NCBI GenBank assembly: GCA_903831305.1 | Contig: CAIKXE010000008.1 | Span: 25,105-89,104 of the forward strand | Length of the DNA stretch: 64,000 nt | DNA from: an uncultured bacterium | GTDB lineage: Bacteria; Patescibacteriota; Minisyncoccia; Phycocordibacterales; GWA1-40-21 | Reading direction: 5' to 3' | Shown: piece after piece, positions 16,708-48,600 of the stretch | How the letters are laid out: every line of letters starts with the position of its first letter | Numbering within the stretch: position 1 is the first letter of the stretch | Notes under the pieces: generated by a model | The model's input: only the letters and a program-made list of their open reading frames with translations | What the model was told of the DNA's origin: nothing | Databases searched by the model: none | Made by a program: the position numbers and the translations under genes

Positions 16708-18201
16708 TTACTCAGTTTTTATTCCTAGGGCTTGTTTGATAAATTTTCTTGCCATGCCTGTTTTGGTGTAGTCCAGCCATTTTCTGTTTGGCTTGGCAGT
16801 TTTTTTAGTTATAATCTCTACATGGTCGCCATTTTTTAATTCGGCATGAAGGGGAGATATTTTACCATTGACCATGGCGCTCGCAATATGATTACCGATA
16901 TCGGAGTGGATAGCATAAGCAAAGTCAATGACCGAGGAACCGATGGGTAAGTCCACTACATCACCTTTGGGCGTAAAGACAAATATTCGTTGAGAGAAAA
17001 AATCAGCCTTTAGATCGGTCAGCATATCCTCACCATTTGATGAGGCGTTTGTCTCAACTAAATCTTTCATCCAACCCGGAGTGTTTTGGTTTGTAACTGT
17101 TGATTTGAAAAAATAACCTAAGGATTTTGGCAAAAATTGGCTGAACCAACTCATTTCCCTGTTTTCGCTATTTTTAATATCTTTATATGAGAGGTGAGAA
17201 GCAATACCATATTCTGCTTCCTTATGCATTTCATAAGTACGGATTTGAATTTCCACAATTGCTCCATCACCAGTAAAAACAGTTGTGTGAATGCTTCTAT
17301 AACCGTTTAGCTTGGGGATGGCAATATAATCCTTGATTCTCCCCGGTAAAGGACGCCATTTACTGTGAATAATACCAAGTATTTTATAACAGTCTGCTAT
17401 GGAATCAGTAAAAATGCGGAGAGCTAAAATATCATAGACATTATCAATATCTCCACCCTTGGAGATTATTTTTTTACTCAAACTATAGAGTCCTTTTTGA
17501 CGATAATCAGTATGGATATTGGTCAGATTATTTTCCGCCAAAGCCTTTTTGACTGATTTCATAAACCTTTCTAGTTTTGGTAGGGTTTCCGCTTTCTTTT
17601 GTTTAATCAGTTCTTTAACTTTTTTGTATTCATCTGGATAGAGATATGGAAAGGACAAATCCTCTAACTCTTTAGATAGTTTTCTGATTCCCAGTCTGTA
17701 GGCTAGGGGAGAAAATATCTCGATGGTTTCCAGGGACATTCTTTTCTGTTTTTCTGGGGATAAAAACTCTAAGGTACGCATATTATGTAACCTATCGGCA
17801 AGCTTGATTATGAGGACACGAATATCTTGAGCGGAGGCGACAAATAATTTGCGCAAGCTTTCAATATGTCTTTCTACTCCATGGTATTTTATTCTATCAA
17901 GCTTGGTAACACCGTTTACTAAAAATAGGATCTCGTCTCCGAATTCCTTTTTTAAATTTTCTTCAGATATTTTATCAAACTTAAATGAACCGTGTAATAA
18001 ACCGGCAGCAATGGTCGGTGGGTCCATTTTAATTTCAGCTAAAATTAAAGCGGTTGAGAAAAAATGAACAAAATAAGGTTCACCAGAATTTCTCATTTGG
18101 CCGTGATGAATTTTTTCGGCTATATTATAGGCTTTTTCAATCAGGGCAATATCCTCGGGGGTCTGAGAATCTATAAGGTTGATTATTTCCTTAACGTCCA
18201 T
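16708..18201 (-). CDS. rel: Bifunctional (p)ppGpp synthetase/hydrolase Rel (HD + RelA/SpoT + TGS domains)
   Basis: HD domain HHGQMRNSGEPYFVH; synthetase region RSIHTTV; TGS FVFTPKGDVVDLPIGSSVIDFAYAIHSDIG. Confidence 0.8.
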   Translation of the reverse strand: MDVKEIINLIDSQTPEDIALIEKAYNIAEKIHHGQMRNSGEPYFVHFFSTALILAEIKMDPPTIAAGLLHGSFKFDKISEENLKKEFGDEILFLVNGVTKLDRIKYHGVERHIESLRKLFVASAQDIRVLIIKLADRLHNMRTLEFLSPEKQKRMSLETIEIFSPLAYRLGIRKLSKELEDLSFPYLYPDEYKKVKELIKQKKAETLPKLERFMKSVKKALAENNLTNIHTDYRQKGLYSLSKKIISKGGDIDNVYDILALRIFTDSIADCYKILGIIHSKWRPLPGRIKDYIAIPKLNGYRSIHTTVFTGDGAIVEIQIRTYEMHKEAEYGIASHLSYKDIKNSENREMSWFSQFLPKSLGYFFKSTVTNQNTPGWMKDLVETNASSNGEDMLTDLKADFFSQRIFVFTPKGDVVDLPIGSSVIDFAYAIHSDIGNHIASAMVNGKISPLHAELKNGDHVEIITKKTAKPNRKWLDYTKTGMARKFIKQALGIKTE

Positions 18202-18248
18202 ATATTAAGTATAGACCTAGATTTAAATTTAGCAAATGGAATAAGATA

Positions 18249-20540
18249 TTAGACTTTTGCTATTTTATCTGGTCGGTGGTTTGGGCAAGTTTTGACGGAA
18301 CATCGCTCGGGGATAGTTTTTGTACCTTCCATCATGAGGGCCCCGCAGATTTTACAGAGGCTACCCGTCGGCTTGGCTTTAATAGCATTCTTACACTTGG
18401 GATAATTGGAACAGCTGTAAAATACGCCAAAGCGTCCGCGCTTCTCCGTCATCACGCCGTCCTTGCAGGTCGGGCAAGTAACACCGGTACTGTTCTGTCT
18501 TTCGAGCTCAGCATCCTTTTTAATGTATTTACACTTGGGATAATTGGAACAAGAGATAAACCGGCCAAACTTACCATCGCGTTCTACCAAGACGCCAGTT
18601 TTACAGTCTGGGCATTTTTCACCAGTTTCTTTTGGCCCAGCCATCTCTTCGCCGGTGATCTTTCGGGCACCAGTACACTCAGGGTATTTAGCACAGCTCA
18701 AGAATTTACCATTCTTTGATAGCTTGATAATCATCGGTCCACCACAGATCGGGCAAGCGTGTTTGCTATCTGCTTCACCAAAATTGTTTACTTTGTCTAT
18801 TTTGTCTTTCAATTTAATTTCTTTTAAGAACGGTCCGTAAAAGTCTTTTAAAGTTTTTAAATACTCCGCCTTACCTTCGGCAATAAAGTCCAGCTTGTCT
18901 TCCATCTCGGCGGTAAAGGTGTCACTGATATAATGAGCAAAATTATTTTCTAGGAAGCTACTGACCACATCACCGGTATCCGTCGGTACCAGAGCTTTAT
19001 TTATTTTTTCTACATAACCGCGGTCCTCAATCGTCTTGATAATAGAAGCATAGGTGGATGGTCGGCCAATATCCCTTTTTTCTAATTCCTTGATCAAGCC
19101 GGCTTCGGAATATCGGCTCGGTGGCTCGGTCTGTTTACCAAGGGCCGAAATATCTATAAGTTTAAGTTCATCACCAATAGTGACTTTGGGTAATATCACA
19201 TCATCACCCACACCCTCCGGATCAGCGGAGAGCCAACCCGGGAAAAGTAAGCGGGAACCATTGGCCCAAAAATCAGGGATCGCTGTATTGGTAGGAGGAA
19301 CTTTTGGAGATTTCTCGGAGCGATTAGGTACTCCGTTAAGCGGAGAGAATTCTCCGAGAGTTCCGACGATGGAAACAAAAATCTTGGTACGCATTATTTT
19401 AGCGTCAGTCATTTGGGAGGCCAGTGTCCTCTGCCAGATCAAGCGGTACAGTCTTTTCTGTTCATCATTTATTCCAGCATTTAGATTAGAAATATCCGTC
19501 GGACGAATAGCCTCATGCGCTTCCTGTGCATTTTTACTCTTGGCGGTAAAAGTGTGGGGCTCTAAATATTCCTTACCATATTTATTTTCAATCGTGCTAT
19601 AGATTTGGTTTAAGGCCACTTGGCTCAAGTTTACACTGTCCGTACGCATATAAGTAATATAACCCGCTTCATAAAGCTTCTGAGCAATACCCATGGTGCG
19701 TGAGGGAGCAAAGCCCAGGCGGGAACTGGCAGTTTGTTGCATAGTGGAGGTGGTAAAAGGGGCGCGAGCGGAGCGCTTGGTCTCGGTCTCAGTCACATCT
19801 TTTACTAGCCACTTTGACTTTCTTCCAGCTTCCAAGATTTTATTTACTATCTTTTCATCTCGCGGTTCCTCGGAACAGGTCAAAACTAAATCTTCATGTT
19901 TGGGTGTTTTGGTATTAGCGGTAATCTCCCAATAATTTTCTGGAATAAAAGCGCGGATTTCACGTTCCCGTTCCATAATTATACGGAGGGCGGGGGACTG
20001 CACTCGGCCAGCCGAGAGACCATAACGGACTTTTTTCCAAATCAAACCGGAAAGGTCATAACCAACCAAGCGGTCAAGTACTCGTCTGGCCTCCTGGGCT
20101 TGCTTTAGATTGTCATCTATCTCGCGTGGGTGCTTCATGGCTTCTTGCACCGCATCCTTGGTGATTTCATAAAAGACAACTCGTTTAGGGTTTTTTAGTC
20201 CTACGGCTTCTTTGATATGCCAAGCAATCGCTTCACCTTCACGGTCGGGGTCGGTCGCAAGTAGCACCTCTTCGGCTTTCTTAGCTAAAGCTTTAATTTC
20301 ACTAACCACCTTTTCCTTACCCGGGGAGATTTCATAATGGGGGATAAAACCACCCGGAATGTCTATGGCCTTTTTATTACTTTTTGGCAGATCGCGAATA
20401 TGCCCCACGCTCGCGCGGACTTCATATTTGCCATCCAAATATTTGGAAATGGTCTTGGCTTTTGATGGTGATTCTACAATTAAAAGTTTCATATATTTGC
20501 TAGTATGCCATAAATTTTTATTTTTACCAAGTTTGTACAC
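18249..20540 (-). CDS. topA: DNA topoisomerase I with C-terminal Zn-ribbon repeats
   Basis: Toprim N-terminus LLIVESPSKAKTI; catalytic region; multiple C4 ribbons (CPICGG, CPDCKTG, CPTCKDG). Confidence 0.85.
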   Translation of the reverse strand: MYKLGKNKNLWHTSKYMKLLIVESPSKAKTISKYLDGKYEVRASVGHIRDLPKSNKKAIDIPGGFIPHYEISPGKEKVVSEIKALAKKAEEVLLATDPDREGEAIAWHIKEAVGLKNPKRVVFYEITKDAVQEAMKHPREIDDNLKQAQEARRVLDRLVGYDLSGLIWKKVRYGLSAGRVQSPALRIIMEREREIRAFIPENYWEITANTKTPKHEDLVLTCSEEPRDEKIVNKILEAGRKSKWLVKDVTETETKRSARAPFTTSTMQQTASSRLGFAPSRTMGIAQKLYEAGYITYMRTDSVNLSQVALNQIYSTIENKYGKEYLEPHTFTAKSKNAQEAHEAIRPTDISNLNAGINDEQKRLYRLIWQRTLASQMTDAKIMRTKIFVSIVGTLGEFSPLNGVPNRSEKSPKVPPTNTAIPDFWANGSRLLFPGWLSADPEGVGDDVILPKVTIGDELKLIDISALGKQTEPPSRYSEAGLIKELEKRDIGRPSTYASIIKTIEDRGYVEKINKALVPTDTGDVVSSFLENNFAHYISDTFTAEMEDKLDFIAEGKAEYLKTLKDFYGPFLKEIKLKDKIDKVNNFGEADSKHACPICGGPMIIKLSKNGKFLSCAKYPECTGARKITGEEMAGPKETGEKCPDCKTGVLVERDGKFGRFISCSNYPKCKYIKKDAELERQNSTGVTCPTCKDGVMTEKRGRFGVFYSCSNYPKCKNAIKAKPTGSLCKICGALMMEGTKTIPERCSVKTCPNHRPDKIAKV

Positions 20541-20576
20541 TTTTTTGCATCTGCCTTTTAAATATATTTATAATGT

Positions 20577-20596
20577 AAAGTAAGCCATGGCTTACT
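20577..20596. promoter_or_regulatory. 20-bp perfect palindrome AAGTAAGCCATGGCTTACTT (copy 1), overlapping the -35 region upstream of the 20712 gene
   Basis: Exact self-complementary 20-mer. Identical copies at 21035-21054 and 21487-21506. Confidence 0.7.
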
Positions 20597-20711
20597 TGAT
20601 AATTAGCAATATAGTGTAAAGTGAAGAGGCATTTCAAATATAAGTTGATTTAATCATAAAATCTGGTACTCTGTATTTTAGATAGAACTTAAACCAAGGA
20701 GGGTGTAAAGA

Positions 20712-20972
20712 ATGAAAATCAAGACCTGGGGAGAACCGTGGTATGAGGAGATGTCTCGTTCAAGAGACAATCGATGTCCTGAATGCCACGAGGGAACGCT
20801 TGGTAGACCAAGTATTGAGAATGTTGCGAAACTTCTCGTGGGTATTGATACGAGAGGTGGGTCTTTTAAGGTAACGGCTATCTTTAGATGCCCAAAGTGT
20901 GAGAATTTGTTCTGGTTTCACCTTGACCTCATATTTGCCGAATGGGTTCTAGAAGATATGGAGGATAGATAA
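20712..20972 (+). CDS. Small Zn-ribbon protein (CPECH...CPKCEN), 86 aa
   Basis: Two CxxC pairs; SD AAGGAGGG precedes the ATG; own terminator at 20973-21002. Confidence 0.55.
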   Translation: MKIKTWGEPWYEEMSRSRDNRCPECHEGTLGRPSIENVAKLLVGIDTRGGSFKVTAIFRCPKCENLFWFHLDLIFAEWVLEDMEDR

Positions 20973-21002
20973 AGTGGTTGGCCTGGAAACTAACCACTTT
21001 TA
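20973..21002 (+). terminator. Intrinsic terminator AGUGGUU...AACCACU followed by UUUU
   Basis: Hairpin followed by a T-run directly after the stop. Confidence 0.6.
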
Positions 21003-21034
21003 ACATTTATTTTTGAAAGTTAATATTGAATATA

Positions 21035-21054
21035 AAGTAAGCCATGGCTTACTT
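21035..21054. promoter_or_regulatory. 20-bp perfect palindrome AAGTAAGCCATGGCTTACTT (copy 2), overlapping the -35 of a promoter with extended -10 TGATATAAT
   Basis: Exact copy; followed by ...TTACAAAAACTGGATTTGTGATATAATG and the ATG at 21086. Confidence 0.7.
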
Positions 21055-21085
21055 ACAAAAACTGGATTTGTGATATAATGTAGAT

Positions 21086-21472
21086 ATGAAAAAACATTTA
21101 AAATATAAAGGGGTTACTGTTGGGGCTTTTGGTTTACCGGTATTGCTTTCTAATAAGAAAGATATTTCACGACGAGGAGAACCCGGAAGAAAATATTTTC
21201 AATACCAACGTTTTATCTATAATTTTAAAAATACCGCCCCAAGGGATTTGATTGTAATGTATGATATTCCGACTGAAAAGAAAAAGGAGAGGGAGTGGTT
21301 TAGACGGCATTTGCAGAAATTTGGTTATGTTATGATCCAGAAAAGTGTTTGGGTCGGTCCTTCACCTTTACCAAGAAATTTTCTGGACTATGTTAAAAAG
21401 CTAGGTCTTTTAAGTCAATTAAGGACATTAAAGCTCGCTAAACCATATTCGAGGTATGATCGAAATATGTAA
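21086..21472 (+). CDS. Cas2-fold-like (VapD/Cas2 superfamily) protein with N- and C-terminal extensions, 128 aa; orphan (no cas1 or array nearby)
   Basis: Core LIVMYDIPTEKKKEREWFRRHLQKFGYVMIQKSVWV follows the Cas2 pattern xxYDVxxxxRRxxLRKxLxxYGxRVQxSVF (beta1-alpha1-beta2 spacing). By-eye alignment only. Confidence 0.4.
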   Translation: MKKHLKYKGVTVGAFGLPVLLSNKKDISRRGEPGRKYFQYQRFIYNFKNTAPRDLIVMYDIPTEKKKEREWFRRHLQKFGYVMIQKSVWVGPSPLPRNFLDYVKKLGLLSQLRTLKLAKPYSRYDRNM

Positions 21473-21486
21473 TTCTATATTATCCC

Positions 21487-21506
21487 AAGTAAGCCATGGC
21501 TTACTT
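21487..21506. promoter_or_regulatory. 20-bp perfect palindrome AAGTAAGCCATGGCTTACTT (copy 3), upstream of the pilin-like gene
   Basis: Exact copy. Confidence 0.7.
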
Positions 21507-21602
21507 GTAATTATGACTAATTAGGTATTGAGTTGAGCCAAACGGTGTGTTGGTTTCCGATGTATATATGCTATTATATTAAGTACAAGTTTATTTAGTA
21601 TT

Positions 21603-22916
21603 ATGAAAAGAAAACACGGTTTTACACTTTTGGAAATATTATTAGTCATCGGTATCATCGCCATCCTTGCTGGTATCGTGATTTTAGCCATCAACCCCAC
21701 CAGACAATTTTCTAATATCCGCAATACTCAAAGAAAGATGAATCTAGCGGAAATCAACAAAGCTTTATACCAATATTATATAGATAATTCCGGTTATCCC
21801 TCCTCTATCACTACTACCCTTACGGAAATCTGTGATACTGGAGCTACCTCAACTGGACACAGCTTGACTTGCACGGGTTTTGTGGATCTTTCCGCTCTTG
21901 TCCCTACCTATTTAGTAGCTATCCCACTTGATCCGAGTGGTGCTATCATCACAGGGGGAGCTGGTTATAAAGTCGCTTTTAATTCTAGTGGAAAGGTGTA
22001 TTTAGCTGGTACCCAGGCTGAAAATGGCGATTCAATTATTTTTGGAAACAATGCTGGGGTTACTATTTTTATTTCGGCAACGGGTGGGGCTATTACTTAT
22101 ACTGATGCCGATGGACAAAATGCCCGTTCTTCACCGGCTTATGCTGGTGGTTATAAACTCCATACCTTTACTACTGATGATGCTTTGATCGTGACGGCGG
22201 GTAGTGATAATGCTCAAGTGTTGGTAGTGGCTGGGGGAGGTGGAGGTGGAGGACGGATGGGTGGTGGTGGTGGGGCGGGTGGTCTGGTTTATACTTCGGC
22301 CGTAGCTGTGACAACCGGCACATATTCTATTGTCATTGGGGCTGGCGGCGCAGGGGCCACTAATTCAAGTACTAGAGGGAGTTCGGGTTCAAATACTTCT
22401 TTTGCGGCGATAATAGCAACAGGCGGTGGAGGAGGTGGAAGCAGAAACTCATCTCCCGCCAATGGAATAAATGGTGGTTCAGGTGGCGGTGGAGGTGGGG
22501 GTGCTGGAACAACTGGCGGGACGGGGACATCTGGACAGGGAAATAATGGCGGAAATGGGAATGGCGATGGCACCAACGGTGGCGGTGGAGGTGGAGGTGG
22601 TGCTGGTGCTGCTGCCAGTAATGTTTCAACGTTTGCACCAACTAGTGGAGGTGTGGGATTAGATTATAGTGGAATTTTTGGAACGGGGGCTGGTGTAGCT
22701 GGTTGGTTTGCTGGTGGTGGTGGAGGAGGGTCGGGCTCTTGGATGAATGCAGCTGGAGCGGGAGGAGGAGGCGGTGGCGGAACGGGAGGAATTTCGAGTG
22801 GTGGTGGTGTAAATGGAACAATTAATACTGGTGGTGGCGGTGGTGGTGGTGGAAACACAGTAAATACAGGTGGCAGTGGCGGGTCGGGCATTGTTATTGT
22901 TAGATATCGGTCATGA
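21603..22916 (+). CDS. Type IV pilin-like protein (class III signal peptide, cleavage site G/FTLLE) with a long Gly-rich low-complexity C-terminal region
   Basis: N-terminus MKRKHGFTLLEILLVIGIIAILAGIVILAI. C-terminus ~200 aa of GGGGxGG tracts. The Pro-rich antisense ORFs are artefacts. Confidence 0.75.
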   Translation: MKRKHGFTLLEILLVIGIIAILAGIVILAINPTRQFSNIRNTQRKMNLAEINKALYQYYIDNSGYPSSITTTLTEICDTGATSTGHSLTCTGFVDLSALVPTYLVAIPLDPSGAIITGGAGYKVAFNSSGKVYLAGTQAENGDSIIFGNNAGVTIFISATGGAITYTDADGQNARSSPAYAGGYKLHTFTTDDALIVTAGSDNAQVLVVAGGGGGGGRMGGGGGAGGLVYTSAVAVTTGTYSIVIGAGGAGATNSSTRGSSGSNTSFAAIIATGGGGGGSRNSSPANGINGGSGGGGGGGAGTTGGTGTSGQGNNGGNGNGDGTNGGGGGGGGAGAAASNVSTFAPTSGGVGLDYSGIFGTGAGVAGWFAGGGGGGSGSWMNAAGAGGGGGGGTGGISSGGGVNGTINTGGGGGGGGNTVNTGGSGGSGIVIVRYRS

Positions 22917-24472: not shown

Positions 24473-24542
24473 AAAGTTCTCAGAACATACTTTCCGTTTA
24501 ACGGAGTACCTAATCACTCCAAGTATGTTCTGAAAACTTTCA
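24473..24542. repeat. Long inverted repeat (21-bp arms GAAAGTTCTCAGAACATACTT / AAGTATGTTCTGAAAACTTTC, 1 mismatch) enclosing an inner palindrome TCCGTTTAACGGA
   Basis: Read directly; lies between the ABC-F gene and the RGG/Zn-ribbon gene. Confidence 0.6.
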
Positions 24543-24611: not shown

Positions 24612-25163
24612 ATGGGAGAATTCAGATCAGGTGGAACAAATAGATTTAGTGGCGGTCATGGTGGACATGGCGGTGGTTTTGCTGGCCGTGGTGGCCGACC
24701 GAGCTTTGGTGGGGGTAATAGGGGTGGTTTCCGTGGTAATGACCGTGGTCCGGTGACTATGCATAAAGTAGTTTGTGACGAATGTAAAAAGCCTTGCGAA
24801 GTGCCCTTTTTACCGACCGCTGGTAAGCCAGTTTATTGTAGTGCTTGTTTTGGTGGTAAAAGAGAAGGTGGTAATGACCGCGGTGGTGACAGATTCCCTA
24901 AAAAAAACTTTGGGGATTACAAGACCCCGCCTCGTACAGACTTTGGTAATGATGTAAACAAAGTGAGTGGTAGCGAGATCAAAAAGCAGATTGAAGTTTT
25001 AAATGTGAAGATCGATCGTTTGACCAAGGTGATAGAGGGTATGACTAATATCAAACCAGTAGTTGCCGAACAAAAGGTTAAAGAAGTGGTGAAAGAGAGC
25101 TTCAAAATGACCCCGGTCGTCAAAACCAAGAAAACCGTCAAAAAGGTTTCCAAAAAGAAATAA
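24612..25163 (+). CDS. Gly/Arg-rich protein with central CxxC-x17-CxxC Zn-ribbon and Lys-rich C-terminus (putative nucleic-acid binding)
   Basis: N-terminal RGG/GGF repeats, Zn-ribbon VVCDECKKPCEVPFLPTAGKPVYCSACF, then a K-rich tail. Confidence 0.55.
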   Translation: MGEFRSGGTNRFSGGHGGHGGGFAGRGGRPSFGGGNRGGFRGNDRGPVTMHKVVCDECKKPCEVPFLPTAGKPVYCSACFGGKREGGNDRGGDRFPKKNFGDYKTPPRTDFGNDVNKVSGSEIKKQIEVLNVKIDRLTKVIEGMTNIKPVVAEQKVKEVVKESFKMTPVVKTKKTVKKVSKKK

Positions 25164-35038: not shown

Positions 35039-35932
35039 TTAAGTTAGTTTTATTTCACCGAGGACCTCTTTGATCAAACCCTTGAGCTCCATCACAGAGA
35101 GGACGGCGTTAGCTTGACCTGTGGGCATATTGAGCGAGCGGAGGAGAACATCTTTTTCCATCGGCTCGCGGAGAAGGGTAATCACCTTTTTTTCTTCCGC
35201 AGAACACTCGGCATATTCTAATTCTAAATTTCGAGGGGCGGAATCACGGTCCTTAAAGCCTAGAGCCAGCAGTAACTCCTTGGAACTAGTAATCGGCGTG
35301 GCGCCCAACCGTATCAGCATATGTGGACCCTCAGAGGTTTTAGAAAAAATGGATCCAGGGACAGTCAGCACATCTTTATTATAATCAGTAGCTAACCTAG
35401 AAGTAATTAAGGTTCCAGACTTAATCTCTGCTTCAATAATTAAAACAGCAGAAGATAGTCCAGCCATAATGCGGTTACGCTGGGGGAAACTATACTGAGT
35501 GGCTTTAAAGTCGGCGTCATATTCGGAAAGCATACAGCCACCACTTTCTAATATTTTTCTGGCTAAGCCAATATGGGCTTGGGGGTGGAGAGAAGTCACG
35601 CCTAATCCAGAGCCGGGAACAGAAATGGTTTTTAGTCCGGTATTGATAGCCGCCTCGTGAGCGATACCATCAATACCAATGGCTAGTCCAGAGACAATAG
35701 CCACATCATAACCACGAAGGCCGGCAATTAATTTTTCACAGGCTTCCTTGCCATAGTTCGTATACCGCCGGCTACCGACGACGCAAAGTAGTTTGGTATT
35801 GGGGCCGGGTAGGTCACCGCGTAAATAGAGTTTTTCCGGTGGCTCCGGAATCTCTAAAAGAGCTTCGGGAAAATTCTTCTTTTTAAGTTCATGGATGGGG
35901 AAGTCTCTGTCAATAATATGTTCAATTTTCAT
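35039..35932 (-). CDS. dprA: DNA processing protein DprA (Smf)
   Basis: GSRRYTNYG and GLAIGIDGIAHEAA Rossmann DprA motifs. Confidence 0.8.
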   Translation of the reverse strand: MKIEHIIDRDFPIHELKKKNFPEALLEIPEPPEKLYLRGDLPGPNTKLLCVVGSRRYTNYGKEACEKLIAGLRGYDVAIVSGLAIGIDGIAHEAAINTGLKTISVPGSGLGVTSLHPQAHIGLARKILESGGCMLSEYDADFKATQYSFPQRNRIMAGLSSAVLIIEAEIKSGTLITSRLATDYNKDVLTVPGSIFSKTSEGPHMLIRLGATPITSSKELLLALGFKDRDSAPRNLELEYAECSAEEKKVITLLREPMEKDVLLRSLNMPTGQANAVLSVMELKGLIKEVLGEIKLT

Positions 35933-47800: not shown

Positions 47801-47859
47801 CTTTCATATCTATGCTATTATAGTAAGTACAATTGTTTTATAAGCATTAATCTAAAAAA

Positions 47860-48600
47860 ATGAAAGCAAGTGAAGAAAAAAGTTTTTATAGTTCCATTCA
47901 GTTTATTATTGGTCTTTGTCTCATTATTAGTTCTGTTATTTTTTCCTTAGCATTTTATAGCTCAAGAATTTCTACGGATTCTATTTCCGTGACGGGTTCT
48001 GCTTCTCAGGAGGTGGTGTCTGATAATGCTAAGTTTTCTGGTGATTTCTCCAGAATTGTAAAACTCAGTGCTTTGAAGACAGGCTATGATCAGATGGCAA
48101 AAGACTTAGTTGTGGTTAAGGATTTTTTGAAAGCCCAAAAGATTGAGGATAAGGATATAACTATTTCTACTGTTTCCATGCAACAAAATTATGATTATAA
48201 TCAAAACGTCAGTCAGGCGGAGAAAGACTATACTTTACGCCAGACGGTAGAAATATCTTCTTCAGGTGTGGCTAAAATCACCGCCTTAGCTCAGGCCACA
48301 CAATCAATCATAAATAAAGGGGTTATCTTTAGCGTCTATCCGGTAGAATATTATTATAGAAATTTACCGGAAGTTAGAGTTTCTCTTCTGTCTTCTGCCG
48401 TGGCTGATGCCAAGAAGCGAGCTGAGGAGATTGTCTCTGGTACTGGCCAAAAGATTGGGGCCTTGAAGTCTGCGGCGAGTGGGGTGGTCCAGGTCCTTCC
48501 GGCCAATTCTTTAGAAATTTCTGATTACGGTACTTATGATACTACCAAGGTAAATAAGAACATTATGGTGACAGTAAAGGCGGCTTTTACAATAAAATAG
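47860..48600 (+). CDS. SIMPL/DUF541 domain protein (periplasmic immunogenic protein family)
   Basis: N-terminal TM; length and composition typical of DUF541. By-eye call. Confidence 0.45.
   Translation: MKASEEKSFYSSIQFIIGLCLIISSVIFSLAFYSSRISTDSISVTGSASQEVVSDNAKFSGDFSRIVKLSALKTGYDQMAKDLVVVKDFLKAQKIEDKDITISTVSMQQNYDYNQNVSQAEKDYTLRQTVEISSSGVAKITALAQATQSIINKGVIFSVYPVEYYYRNLPEVRVSLLSSAVADAKKRAEEIVSGTGQKIGALKSAASGVVQVLPANSLEISDYGTYDTTKVNKNIMVTVKAAFTIK

What the first reader, a model, noticed from the sequence alone, without database searches (positions are those of the whole stretch)
20577..21600. Three identical 20-bp perfect palindromes over consecutive promoters, flanking a Zn-ribbon protein and an orphan Cas2-fold-like protein
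AAGTAAGCCATGGCTTACTT occurs three times, exactly, at 20577, 21035 and 21487, each overlapping the -35 region of the next gene's promoter. The third copy sits ahead of the pilin-like gene. That is far too long and exact for chance and looks like an operator set for one dimeric regulator. The two enclosed genes are small. One is a Zn-ribbon protein. The other has a core that follows the Cas2/VapD beta-alpha-beta pattern (YDI...RR..L.KFGY..QKSVW) but carries extra N- and C-terminal segments, with no cas1 or CRISPR array nearby. It could be a toxin-antitoxin-like or autoregulated module of unknown function.
Basis: partly seen in the sequence, partly recalled or inferred. Interest (0 to 1): 0.65.

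Follow-up and report, generated by a model that had tools for sequence, protein, structure and literature searches.

The report
Cas2-fold regulator flanked by private operators
The three identical 20-bp palindromes are real. They are most likely binding sites of the small Cas2-fold protein encoded between them, which belongs to a large, unstudied family in ultra-small (CPR) bacteria where each gene copy carries its own matching palindromes and appears to have lost the usual helix-turn-helix DNA-reading part.

Summary
AAGTAAGCCATGGCTTACTT occurs exactly three times (20578, 21035, 21487), none is expected by chance, and these are the only perfect palindromes with arms of 8 nt or more in the 64 kb.

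It belongs to a family with more than 1000 homologues in Paceibacteria-type CPR genomes, with several paralogues per genome. In 68 of 80 related loci a palindrome of the form A-W-N-T-N-M-G-C-Y-A|T-R-G-C-K-N-A-N-W-T lies upstream of the gene. In 60 of those 68 its centre lies 22-23 nt before a -10 box, and the start codon usually follows 6-9 nt later, so the mRNA is leaderless. In 47 loci a second copy follows the stop codon and matches the first at 9.2 of 10 variable positions.

The residue after the YDIP motif co-varies with base 2 from the palindrome centre: D/E goes with CTA|TAG, and other residues go with CCA|TGG (12 of 12 independent contrasts).

Longer relatives (~160 aa) carry a winged-helix segment that this clade has lost.

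Best reading: a dimeric, self-regulating DNA-binding protein with private operators. The toxin-antitoxin, REP-like and CRISPR readings are not supported. No binding or regulation has been shown experimentally.

The parts
20578..20597 (.). Palindrome copy 1 (operator), in the divergent region between topA and the Zn-ribbon gene
   Evidence: Exact match. A -10-like TATAGT sits at the family-standard 22 nt from its centre on the + strand.
20610..20615 (+). -10-like hexamer TATAGT of a duplicated family promoter
   Evidence: Read from the sequence. It aligns with the TATAAT of copy 2's promoter in alignment A2.
20621..20653 (+). Vestigial 10-codon ORF (M)KRHFKYKLI*, the remnant of the 5' end of a family gene
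   Evidence: Translation. It matches the family N-terminus M-K/R-K-Y/H-L/F-K-Y-K-G. The related locus L097 has no palindrome between topA and the Zn-ribbon gene.
20712..20972 (+). Zn-ribbon protein gene (86 aa, two CxxC pairs), probably transcribed from the duplicated family promoter
   Evidence: ORF. Only sub-threshold Zn-ribbon hits. It has 7 homologues, and the two looked up lie next to topA.
20972..21002 (+). Terminator-like hairpin with a U run after the Zn-ribbon gene
   Evidence: RNA fold -13.7 kcal/mol, z -3.9, followed by UUUU.
21035..21054 (.). Palindrome copy 2 (O1), the operator over the -35 region of the 128-aa gene's own promoter
   Evidence: Exact match. Promoter scan CTTACA-16-TATAAT with TG. 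A family-wide upstream palindrome occurs in 68 of 80 loci.
21071..21079 (+). Extended -10 TGaTATAAT. The ATG lies 6 nt downstream, so the mRNA would be leaderless.
   Evidence: In the family the start codon lies 6-9 nt after the -10 in 59 of 68 loci.
21086..21472 (+). 128-aa Cas2-fold / PaaX_M protein, the inferred palindrome-binding dimer
21486..21507 (.). Palindrome copy 3 (O2), the copy that follows the stop codon; 22-nt perfect palindrome here
   Evidence: A family-type copy lies -14 to +61 nt from the stop in 47 loci and matches O1 at 9.17 of 10 variable positions.
21570..21578 (+). Probable own promoter (TGcTATTAT) of the pilin-like gene, separate from copy 3
   Evidence: Read from the sequence. 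The 33-nt block 21563-21595 recurs at 85% identity upstream of another gene at 47807-47839.
21603..22916 (+). Pilin-like gene (N-methylation motif plus Gly-rich domain). It is a neighbour and possibly influenced by copy 3.
   Evidence: Pfam N_methyl 6e-7, Gly_rich_2 2.5e-16.
18249..20492 (-). topA, divergent neighbour. Synteny with the family gene recurs in L008, L017, L019 and L097.
   Evidence: ORF. Toprim/Topoisom_bac annotation in same-species loci. Synteny.

Best explanation
The 128-aa protein is a homodimeric sequence-specific DNA-binding protein built on a Cas2/PaaX-core fold. The 20-bp palindromes are its own private operators.

The dimer's two-fold axis sits on the palindrome centre. 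The loop after strand beta1 (Y59-D60-I61-P62-T63) reads the central base pairs. The conserved N-terminal YKG hairpin and the basic, variable loop (residues ~19-40) probably read the outer half-site.

Binding at copy 2 covers the -35 region of the gene's own leaderless promoter. This most likely represses it, giving negative autoregulation as PaaX does at its Px promoter. Copy 3, just past the stop codon, is a second cognate site of the same unit; its role (auxiliary operator, roadblock or insulator) is not resolved. Copy 1 is a partial duplication of the unit's 5' end (operator, -10 box and 8 codons). It has put the Zn-ribbon gene, and possibly topA, under the same control.

Shown here: the repeats, the fold, the family-wide layout, the fixed operator-to-promoter spacing, and the residue-base covariation. 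Inferred: dimer binding to duplex DNA. Inferred by analogy: the sign of regulation (repression). Unknown: the signal sensed, since there is no ligand-binding domain.
For: (1) The 20-mer occurs exactly 3 times with 0 expected, and these are the only long perfect palindromes in the 64 kb.

(3) There are more than 1000 homologues, nearly all ~128 aa. Of 80 genome loci, 68 have a clear upstream palindrome. The -10 box starts 22-23 nt after the centre in 60 of 68, and the start codon lies 6-9 nt after the -10 in 59 of 68.

(4) Paralogues in one genome have different palindromes, yet the two copies flanking each gene agree: 9.17 of 10 variable positions against 4.66 for non-cognate pairs.

(5) The residue after YDIP is D/E in 22 loci, and all 22 have T (or G/T) at base 2. 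It is non-acidic in 46 loci, of which 41 have C on both arms. Fisher p = 2e-13, and 12 of 12 phylogenetically independent contrasts are concordant, p = 0.0005. The change is symmetric on both arms in 19 of 22, as expected for a dimer on duplex DNA.

(6) Operator positions 1, 3, 7 and 10 are invariant or nearly so, position 4 is mostly G, and positions 2, 5, 6, 8 and 9 vary.

(7) The Zn-ribbon gene is absent from all other loci.

(8) Relatives of ~160 aa have the same layout. PaaX, the characterised relative, represses its own promoter by steric hindrance (PMC9493321).
Against: No experiment exists, so binding, dimerisation and regulation are all inferred.

The protein lacks the recognition helix and wing that ~160-aa relatives and PaaX use for DNA binding. 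Binding must therefore use an undescribed surface.

The N-terminal 50 residues are poorly modelled, with pLDDT below 50 for residues 22-33.

The downstream copy has no promoter at the standard offset: 4 and 6 of 62 against a background of 3.6%. It is also unphased with O1, so its function is unexplained by simple repression.

In the window the O1-to-(-10) spacing is 29 nt rather than 22-23 nt.

Perfect palindromes of up to 44-46 nt in some loci are longer than a 2 x 128-aa dimer would need.

The Cas2 'catalytic' Asp (D60) is conserved, which leaves a nuclease role open.
Confidence: 0.65

Rival explanations
1. Same protein-operator pair, but the protein activates rather than represses. It would substitute for a missing -35 contact at the leaderless promoter.
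For: The family promoters have no -35-like hexamer where the palindrome centre sits. Only 22 of 68 have TG at -15/-14. In the window the centre is at -41.5, the classical class II activator position.
Against: In 60 of 68 loci the centre is at about -34.5, directly where sigma region 4 would sit. Small self-flanked regulators and PaaX itself are autorepressors (PMC9493321). Positive autoregulation without a sensing domain would be hard to control.
Confidence: 0.2
2. The protein is a site-specific nuclease or recombination factor that acts at the palindromes. The palindromes would be the boundaries of exchangeable or mobile gene units, and the regulatory geometry would be secondary.
For: The Cas2 'catalytic' Asp is conserved next to the specificity residue.

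Palindromes bracket single neighbouring genes: the window's Zn-ribbon gene, a pilin-like gene in L016 and a 280-aa gene in L008.

L061 has a 655-bp gene-sized indel bracketed by two palindrome copies where L062 and L055 have one.

A copy lies inside the coding sequence in L007, L011 and L012. Solo copies exist. Some palindromes are perfect over 44-46 nt.
Against: The fixed 22-23-nt spacing to the -10 box is a transcriptional signature.

The gene sits in conserved housekeeping synteny across genera, next to topA or after a recurring pair of ~141-aa and 156-aa ORFs. That argues against frequent mobility.

Copies are rare: 3 in 64 kb, and one in each stretch fetched from two large related contigs. 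No integrase, transposase or Cas1 was noticed among the neighbours examined. No homologue was found in phages. Deletion between 24-bp direct repeats can explain the indel passively.
Confidence: 0.1
3. The palindromes act as RNA hairpins (3'-end, stability or termination elements). These would be bound or cut by the protein acting as a Cas2/VapD-type RNA-binding protein or RNase.
For: Cas2 and VapD are described as ribonucleases in the PDB entries matched. Copy 3 lies in the gene's own 3' UTR, and several solo copies lie 4-16 nt after stop codons. The hairpins fold at -8.8 to -11.9 kcal/mol.
Against: The upstream copy lies upstream of the -10 box and is not part of the gene's own transcript, yet it is the most precisely positioned copy.

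The co-varying base 2 would lie in the hairpin loop, where symmetric change on both arms (19 of 22) has no structural reason.

No U tract follows. There is no Rfam match.
Confidence: 0.08
4. The Zn-ribbon protein is the palindrome-binding regulator, as the first reader suggested for the EMSA.
For: It is encoded between two copies, and Zn-ribbons can bind nucleic acids.
Against: It is absent from all other loci that have the palindromes. It has only 7 homologues, against more than 1000 for the 128-aa protein. In L097 it lies next to topA without any palindrome upstream. The covariation points to the 128-aa protein.
Confidence: 0.03
5. A VapD-like toxin with the Zn-ribbon protein or another neighbour as antitoxin.
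For: Fold similarity to VapD. Both genes are small and adjacent.
Against: There is no conserved neighbour in 80 loci. Several paralogues per tiny genome sit in housekeeping contexts. Each of the two genes has its own promoter, and the first has a terminator-like hairpin. In PADLOC the protein matches only Cas2 models.
Confidence: 0.02

Closest known systems
PaaX (phenylacetyl-CoA-responsive repressor; Pfam PaaX / PaaX_M / PaaX_C; PDB 8a39, 3l09)
   Different: This protein is 128 aa against ~300 aa. It has no C-terminal ligand-binding domain and no intact winged helix-turn-helix, and its TIGR02277 score is 18.9 against a cut-off of 264.55.

Its operator is one compact 20-bp palindrome. PaaX binds TGATTC-N27-GAATCA. 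Specificity maps to the Cas2-like domain itself.

There are several paralogues with private operators per genome. The gene is leaderless and has a second operator after its stop codon.
Cas2 (CRISPR adaptation subunit; PF09827, TIGR01573)
   Different: No CRISPR array in the 64 kb. The neighbours are housekeeping genes. It has a 50-residue N-terminal extension. It shows sequence-specific co-evolution with a palindrome, which is not known for Cas2.
~160-aa wHTH + PaaX_M proteins of CPR bacteria (e.g. P0130, P0133), apparently uncharacterised
   Same: They are the closest relatives in sequence (E 1e-40 to 1e-13). They share the YKG motif, the DIPE/SVWVGPSPLP core, the GCTA|TAGC or GCTA|TCGC palindrome, the leaderless promoter and a second copy after the stop.
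   Different: They keep an N-terminal helix and a ~27-residue segment (SVxNxLxxLKKxGYL...LT). That segment gives weak winged-helix hits (HTH_45, Mrr_N, WH_AprA, CggR_N). The 128-aa clade lacks it.
REP sequences with RAYT transposases; integron attC cassettes
   Same: A gene is flanked by its own cognate palindromes, paralogues have different palindromes, and some palindromes bracket single neighbouring genes.
   Different: There is no HUH transposase or integrase. Copies are few rather than hundreds. The upstream copy is locked to a promoter, and the gene sits in stable synteny.

Membership tests
PaaX family repressor (TIGR02277 / Pfam PaaX + PaaX_M + PaaX_C) | Central Cas2-like dimerisation domain (PaaX_M) | tested here: met
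PaaX family repressor (TIGR02277 / Pfam PaaX + PaaX_M + PaaX_C) | [quoted passage not shown] | tested here: not met
   No wHTH hit at E <= 1. Alignment A3 shows the recognition-helix and wing segment present in ~160-aa relatives is missing. AF2 gives only a short hairpin and a disordered loop there.
PaaX family repressor (TIGR02277 / Pfam PaaX + PaaX_M + PaaX_C) | C-terminal helical ligand (phenylacetyl-CoA) binding domain, and full-length equivalog score | tested here: not met
   The protein ends at residue 128, right after the Cas2-like fold. TIGR02277 gives 18.9 bits against a cut-off of 264.55.
PaaX family repressor (TIGR02277 / Pfam PaaX + PaaX_M + PaaX_C) | Binds an inverted repeat overlapping its own promoter and represses it | tested here: inconclusive
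   Sequence evidence only: palindrome over the -35 region, fixed spacing and residue-base covariation. No binding or expression data.
Cas2 of CRISPR-Cas adaptation modules | Cas2 fold and profile match | tested here: met
Cas2 of CRISPR-Cas adaptation modules | Encoded next to cas1 and a CRISPR array | tested here: not met
   No array-like direct repeats in the 64 kb. Flanking genes are relA/spoT, topA, Zn-ribbon, pilin-like and ABC-F. Neighbours vary across 80 loci. cas1 was not searched for with a profile across the whole window.
VapD-type toxin-antitoxin pair | Conserved adjacent antitoxin gene | tested here: not met
   No conserved neighbour in 80 loci. The Zn-ribbon gene is absent elsewhere.
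REP / MITE-like dispersed palindromic repeat | Many copies dispersed through the intergenic regions of the genome | tested here: not met
   Three copies in 64 kb, all at this locus, and none with up to 3 mismatches elsewhere. Single copies in the stretches fetched from a 120-kb and a 229-kb related contig. The whole genome could not be scanned.
Intrinsic (Rho-independent) terminator | G+C-rich hairpin immediately followed by a U tract | tested here: not met
   Hairpins fold at -8.8 to -11.9 kcal/mol, but GAUAAU, ACAAAA and GUAAUU follow them. The terminator scan did not report them.
Palindromic operator of a dimeric transcription factor | Two-fold symmetric site at a fixed position relative to core promoter elements, co-evolving with the factor | tested here: met
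   Spacing of 22-23 nt in 60 of 68 loci. Cognate O1/O2 agreement. 12 of 12 independent residue-base contrasts.

The most novel reading that the evidence does not exclude
The Cas2-fold domain is more than a passive dimerisation core. It would itself recognise, and possibly cut or recombine, the palindrome centre through the conserved Asp60 loop. On this reading the gene-bracketing palindromes mark a Cas1-less, Cas2-based system of site-specific DNA transactions (cassette gain and loss, or self-excision) in CPR genomes, with autoregulation layered on top.
Probability: 0.1. Interest if true: 0.9.

Novelty: new variant of a known kind. Interest (0 to 1): 0.7.

Why it matters
CPR/Patescibacteria have tiny genomes, and almost nothing is known about how they regulate genes. 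This locus exposes a large family: more than 1000 close homologues, and 313 clusters at 50% identity with E < 1e-10. Databases label these proteins 'Cas2' or 'PaaX'. They behave instead as self-contained regulator-operator units with several mutually distinct specificities per genome.

The 128-aa clade appears to read a 20-bp palindrome without a helix-turn-helix. A single loop residue of the Cas2 fold tracks a single base pair. If confirmed, this would be a new way for a ferredoxin-like/Cas2 fold to recognise DNA sequence. It would also supply naturally orthogonal small repressor-operator pairs and a directly testable specificity rule (T/H/S for C:G, D/E for T:A).

It also means that 'orphan Cas2' annotations in CPR genomes should not be counted as CRISPR remnants.

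Tried and rejected
- **Zn-ribbon protein as regulator:** rejected. It is absent from all other loci and has 7 homologues.
- **CRISPR remnant:** no array found.
- **Defence system:** PADLOC gives only Cas2 model hits for the 128-aa protein and nothing for the Zn-ribbon protein.
- **Known RNA element:** the only hit was a chance-level Rfam match.
- **Phage origin:** no tblastn hit in 50,697 phage records.
- **Downstream copy as an operator of the same promoter type for the next gene, or as an antisense promoter:** a -10-like hexamer at the standard offset occurs in only 4 and 6 of 62 loci against a background of 3.6%.
- **Symmetric divergent promoter towards the upstream gene:** found in only 3 of 11 divergent loci. 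Regulation of topA therefore stays speculative.
- **DNA looping inferred from helical phasing of O1 and O2:** no periodicity, Rayleigh p >= 0.69.
- **Purifying selection on the palindromes from same-species contigs:** uninformative. The whole region from topA to the start of the pilin gene is identical in all five sequences.
- **Other residue-base covariations:** for example Q39 with base 9. These follow the main clade split and were not treated as evidence.
- **Literature:** six full-text searches, none pairing PaaX with Cas2-like or CPR terms, found no description of this family.
- **Exact 20-mer in GC-rich contigs (L083, L084, L086, L090):** unrelated, either satellite-like or chance.
Full report
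**1. Observation**

The 20-mer AAGTAAGCCATGGCTTACTT occurs exactly three times, at 20578-20597, 21035-21054 and 21487-21506. No other site lies within 3 mismatches, and none appeared in 100 shuffles. The first coordinate is off by one from the finding. A scan for perfect palindromes with arms of 8 nt or more in the whole 64-kb window returns only these three; the third is perfect over 22 nt.

- relA/spoT-like (16708-18201, minus strand)
- topA (minus strand; probable start 20492)
- an 86-aa protein with two CxxC pairs (20712-20972)
- a 128-aa protein (21086-21472)
- a pilin-like protein (21603-22916; N-methylation motif plus Gly-rich domain)
- an ABC-F ATPase

No CRISPR-like array is present in the window, and no Rfam family matches the region.

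**2. The 128-aa protein**

It matches Pfam PaaX_M, 'PaaX central Cas2-like domain' (E 3.8e-13). It also matches Cas2 above the curated cut-offs of Pfam and NCBIfam.

**3. The family and its layout**

The protein has more than 1000 homologues, nearly all ~128 aa and 60-89% identical among the best 120. Sources name them variously 'PaaX' or 'Cas2'.

A scan of one genome per species returned 335 confirmed loci. The 80 kept are all from CPR bacteria (Paceibacteria, Nomurabacteria, Taylorbacteria, Zambryskibacteria and similar). Up to three loci from a single assembly are among these 80.

In these loci the gene is flanked by palindromes. An analysis anchored on the conserved YKG motif found a clear upstream palindrome in 68 loci. 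Its centre lies 22-23 nt before a TATAAT-like -10 box in 60 of the 68. The start codon lies 6-9 nt after the -10 box in 59 of the 68. This is a conserved promoter for a leaderless mRNA, with the palindrome centred at about -34.5, where a -35 element would sit.

In the window the -10 box is TGaTATAAT (21071-21079) and the ATG follows 6 nt later. The palindrome lies 7 nt further upstream than the family standard, with its centre at -41.5.

A second family-type palindrome lies -14 to +61 nt from the stop codon in 47 loci. It is present whether the next gene is co-directional or convergent.

**4. Consensus operator**

Reading outward from the centre, the half-site is A1, Y2, C3, G4, M5, N6, T7, N8, W9, A10. 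Positions 1, 3, 7 and 10 are invariant or nearly so, and position 4 is mostly G. Positions 2, 5, 6, 8 and 9 vary. The window's site fits this pattern.

**5. Who binds?**

Three lines of evidence point to the 128-aa protein itself.

(a) Paralogues within one genome have different palindromes. In assembly CAYVWL01 the three half-sites are AAGTAAGCGA, AAGTTGACCA and AACTTTCGCTA. Yet the two copies flanking each gene agree at 9.17 of the 10 variable positions, against 4.66 for pairs from different loci.

(b) The residue after the YDIP motif (T63 in the window) sits at the end of strand beta1, next to the Asp equivalent to the Cas2 catalytic residue. It co-varies with base 2 from the centre.
- It is D or E in 22 loci. 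All 22 have T on both arms (19 loci) or G/T (3 loci), giving CTA|TAG or CGA|TAG.
- It is H, S, T, Y, F, A, N or G in 46 loci. Of these, 41 have CCA|TGG.
- Fisher's test gives p = 2e-13. On a neighbour-joining tree, 12 of 12 independent contrasts are concordant, sign test p = 0.0005.
- One contrast is the window itself (T63, GCCA|TGGC) against L001 (E, GCGA|TAGC). The two proteins are 71% identical and share the outer half-site.
- A symmetric change on both arms fits a dimer whose dyad coincides with that of duplex DNA.

(c) The Zn-ribbon protein is absent from all other loci. It has only seven homologues, and the two that could be looked up lie next to topA.

**6. Loss of the winged helix**

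An exhaustive profile search found 1645 clusters at 50% identity with E < 1e-3, of which 313 have E < 1e-10. Only a handful are of the 128-aa type. The next relatives are ~160-170 aa.

These relatives share the YKGxxVNxFGxP motif and the whole Cas2-like core. In addition they have an N-terminal helix and a ~27-residue segment (SVxNxLxxLKKxGYL...LT). That segment gives weak hits to several winged-helix families. Two such relatives, L093 and L094, show the same palindrome, leaderless promoter and post-stop copy.

The 128-aa clade is therefore a derivative that has lost the recognition helix and wing. It still keeps, and co-evolves with, its palindrome. It also lacks the C-terminal ligand domain of PaaX. 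It shares with PaaX only the central domain and, by inference, the logic of autoregulation. PaaX represses its own Px promoter by steric hindrance (PMC9493321).

**7. The three copies in the window**

Copy 2 is the standard upstream operator and copy 3 is the standard post-stop copy.

Copy 1 is followed by TATAGT at the family-standard 22 nt. Five nt later comes GTG AAG AGG CAT TTC AAA TAT AAG TTG ATT TAA, which encodes (M)KRHFKYKLI*. This is a vestige of the family's N-terminus MKKYLKYKG. The related locus L097 has topA, the Zn-ribbon gene and the family gene in the same order but no palindrome before the Zn-ribbon gene. Copy 1 is therefore a lineage-specific partial duplication of the unit's 5' end that now precedes the Zn-ribbon gene.

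The Zn-ribbon gene has its own terminator-like hairpin. The pilin-like gene has its own promoter-like element (TGcTATTAT, 21570-21578), which is shared with another gene at 47807-47839. Copy 3 is therefore not a -35 operator for it.

**8. Is it a dispersed repeat?**

No. Apart from the three copies, none occurs in the 64 kb.

An exact-match scan of JGI metagenomes found 12 stretches:
- L081 and L089 each have two copies flanking a 74-76% identical homologue.
- L085 has one copy next to a homologue cut by the contig end.
- L087 has a solo copy after dprA, near topA.
- L092 has a solo copy 4 nt after a murC-like stop codon.
- L082 and L091 have a solo copy after a RelE/YafQ-like toxin gene, beside a second, different family palindrome.
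- L088 has a copy inside an rsmI-like coding sequence.
- L083, L084, L086 and L090 are GC-rich contigs. L084 and L090 look like satellite repeats, and all four appear unrelated.

A small set of further sites exists, so there is some regulon or set of relics beyond the gene itself.

**9. What remains unexplained**

The role of the post-stop copy is not settled. It carries no promoter at the standard offset and is not helically phased with O1. It is not a canonical terminator.

Some palindromes are perfect over 44-46 nt. That is longer than the 20-bp conserved core.

Palindromes sometimes bracket single neighbouring genes. One gene-sized (655-bp) indel is bounded by two copies in L061 where L062 and L055 have one. 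Three loci carry a copy inside the gene, translated as EVRHGEL.

Together with the conserved Asp60, these facts keep a nuclease or recombination reading alive at low probability. They can also be explained by passive repeat-mediated rearrangement and by auxiliary operators.

**10. Verdict**

The best explanation is a self-regulating, dimeric, Cas2-fold (PaaX-core) DNA-binding protein with private 20-bp palindromic operators. My confidence is about 0.65 for the whole statement, and higher (about 0.85) for the narrower claim that the protein and the palindrome are cognate partners.

It is not a member of the PaaX equivalog family, nor a CRISPR Cas2, nor a VapD toxin. It is a new variant of the PaaX kind. 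The full-text searches I ran found no description of it.

Noticed in passing
window 20610-20653: After palindrome copy 1 there is a family-type -10 box (TATAGT). It is followed by a 10-codon ORF (M)KRHFKYKLI*, which is a decayed copy of the 5' end of the 128-aa gene family. The Zn-ribbon gene therefore sits behind a captured promoter and operator.
   Followed up: yes
window 21761-21871 and 22114-22172 (pilin-like gene): Four same-species contigs from other samples (L099-L102) are identical to the window from topA through codon ~53 of the pilin-like gene. All 71 variable alignment columns fall in these two blocks of that gene, and two of the contigs end inside the gene. This looks like a strain-variable surface protein.
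   Followed up: partly
L061 4389-5043 compared with L062 and L055: A 655-bp segment encoding a uridine-kinase/PRK-like protein is bracketed by two copies of the palindrome in L061. L062 and L055 have one palindrome directly before gatC. This is a gene-sized indel bounded by the repeats.
   Followed up: partly
L007, L011, L012, at about +77 to +100 within the family gene: A copy of the locus's own palindrome (GAAGTTCGCCATGGCGAACTTC) lies inside the coding sequence, in the variable loop. It is translated as EVRHGEL. It may be a third, internal operator.
   Followed up: no
L082 287-330 and L091 1650-1694: Two different family-type palindromes sit side by side just after a RelE/YafQ-like toxin gene: AAGTAAGCCATGGCTTACTT and GATACGCCATGGCGTATC. 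No family gene lies within the fetched stretch.
   Followed up: no
window 19314-19359 and 24478-24523: A 46-nt inverted repeat (83% complementary) links the inside of the topA coding sequence with the hairpin after the ABC-F gene. It spans the whole 5.1-kb block that holds the unit. Unexplained; it may be a trace of an old rearrangement.
   Followed up: no
window 21563-21595 and 47807-47839: A 33-nt block (TATATATGCTATTATATTAAGTACAAG...) recurs at 85% identity upstream of the pilin-like gene and of the ORF at 47860-48600. The ORF's translation looks SIMPL/DUF541-like by eye and was not scanned. It looks like a shared promoter or leader.
   Followed up: no
L090 1-270 and L084 180-260: GC-rich contigs (55-59% G+C) carry a satellite-like array built from GTAAGCCATGGCTTACTT units. 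It matches the 20-mer exactly but appears unrelated to the CPR element.
   Followed up: partly
window 16708-20972; L097; the locus of P0122: The Zn-ribbon gene lies divergent from topA in the window and in both homologue loci looked up (P0122, P0127/L097). relA/spoT lies beyond topA in the window and in L097. dprA lies nearby in the P0122 locus and in L087, but 15 kb away in the window (35039-35932).
   Followed up: partly
window 24612-25163: A 183-aa ORF after the ABC-F gene matches a treble-clef zinc-finger family (PF23477, 3e-14). This is a second small zinc protein in the neighbourhood.
   Followed up: no
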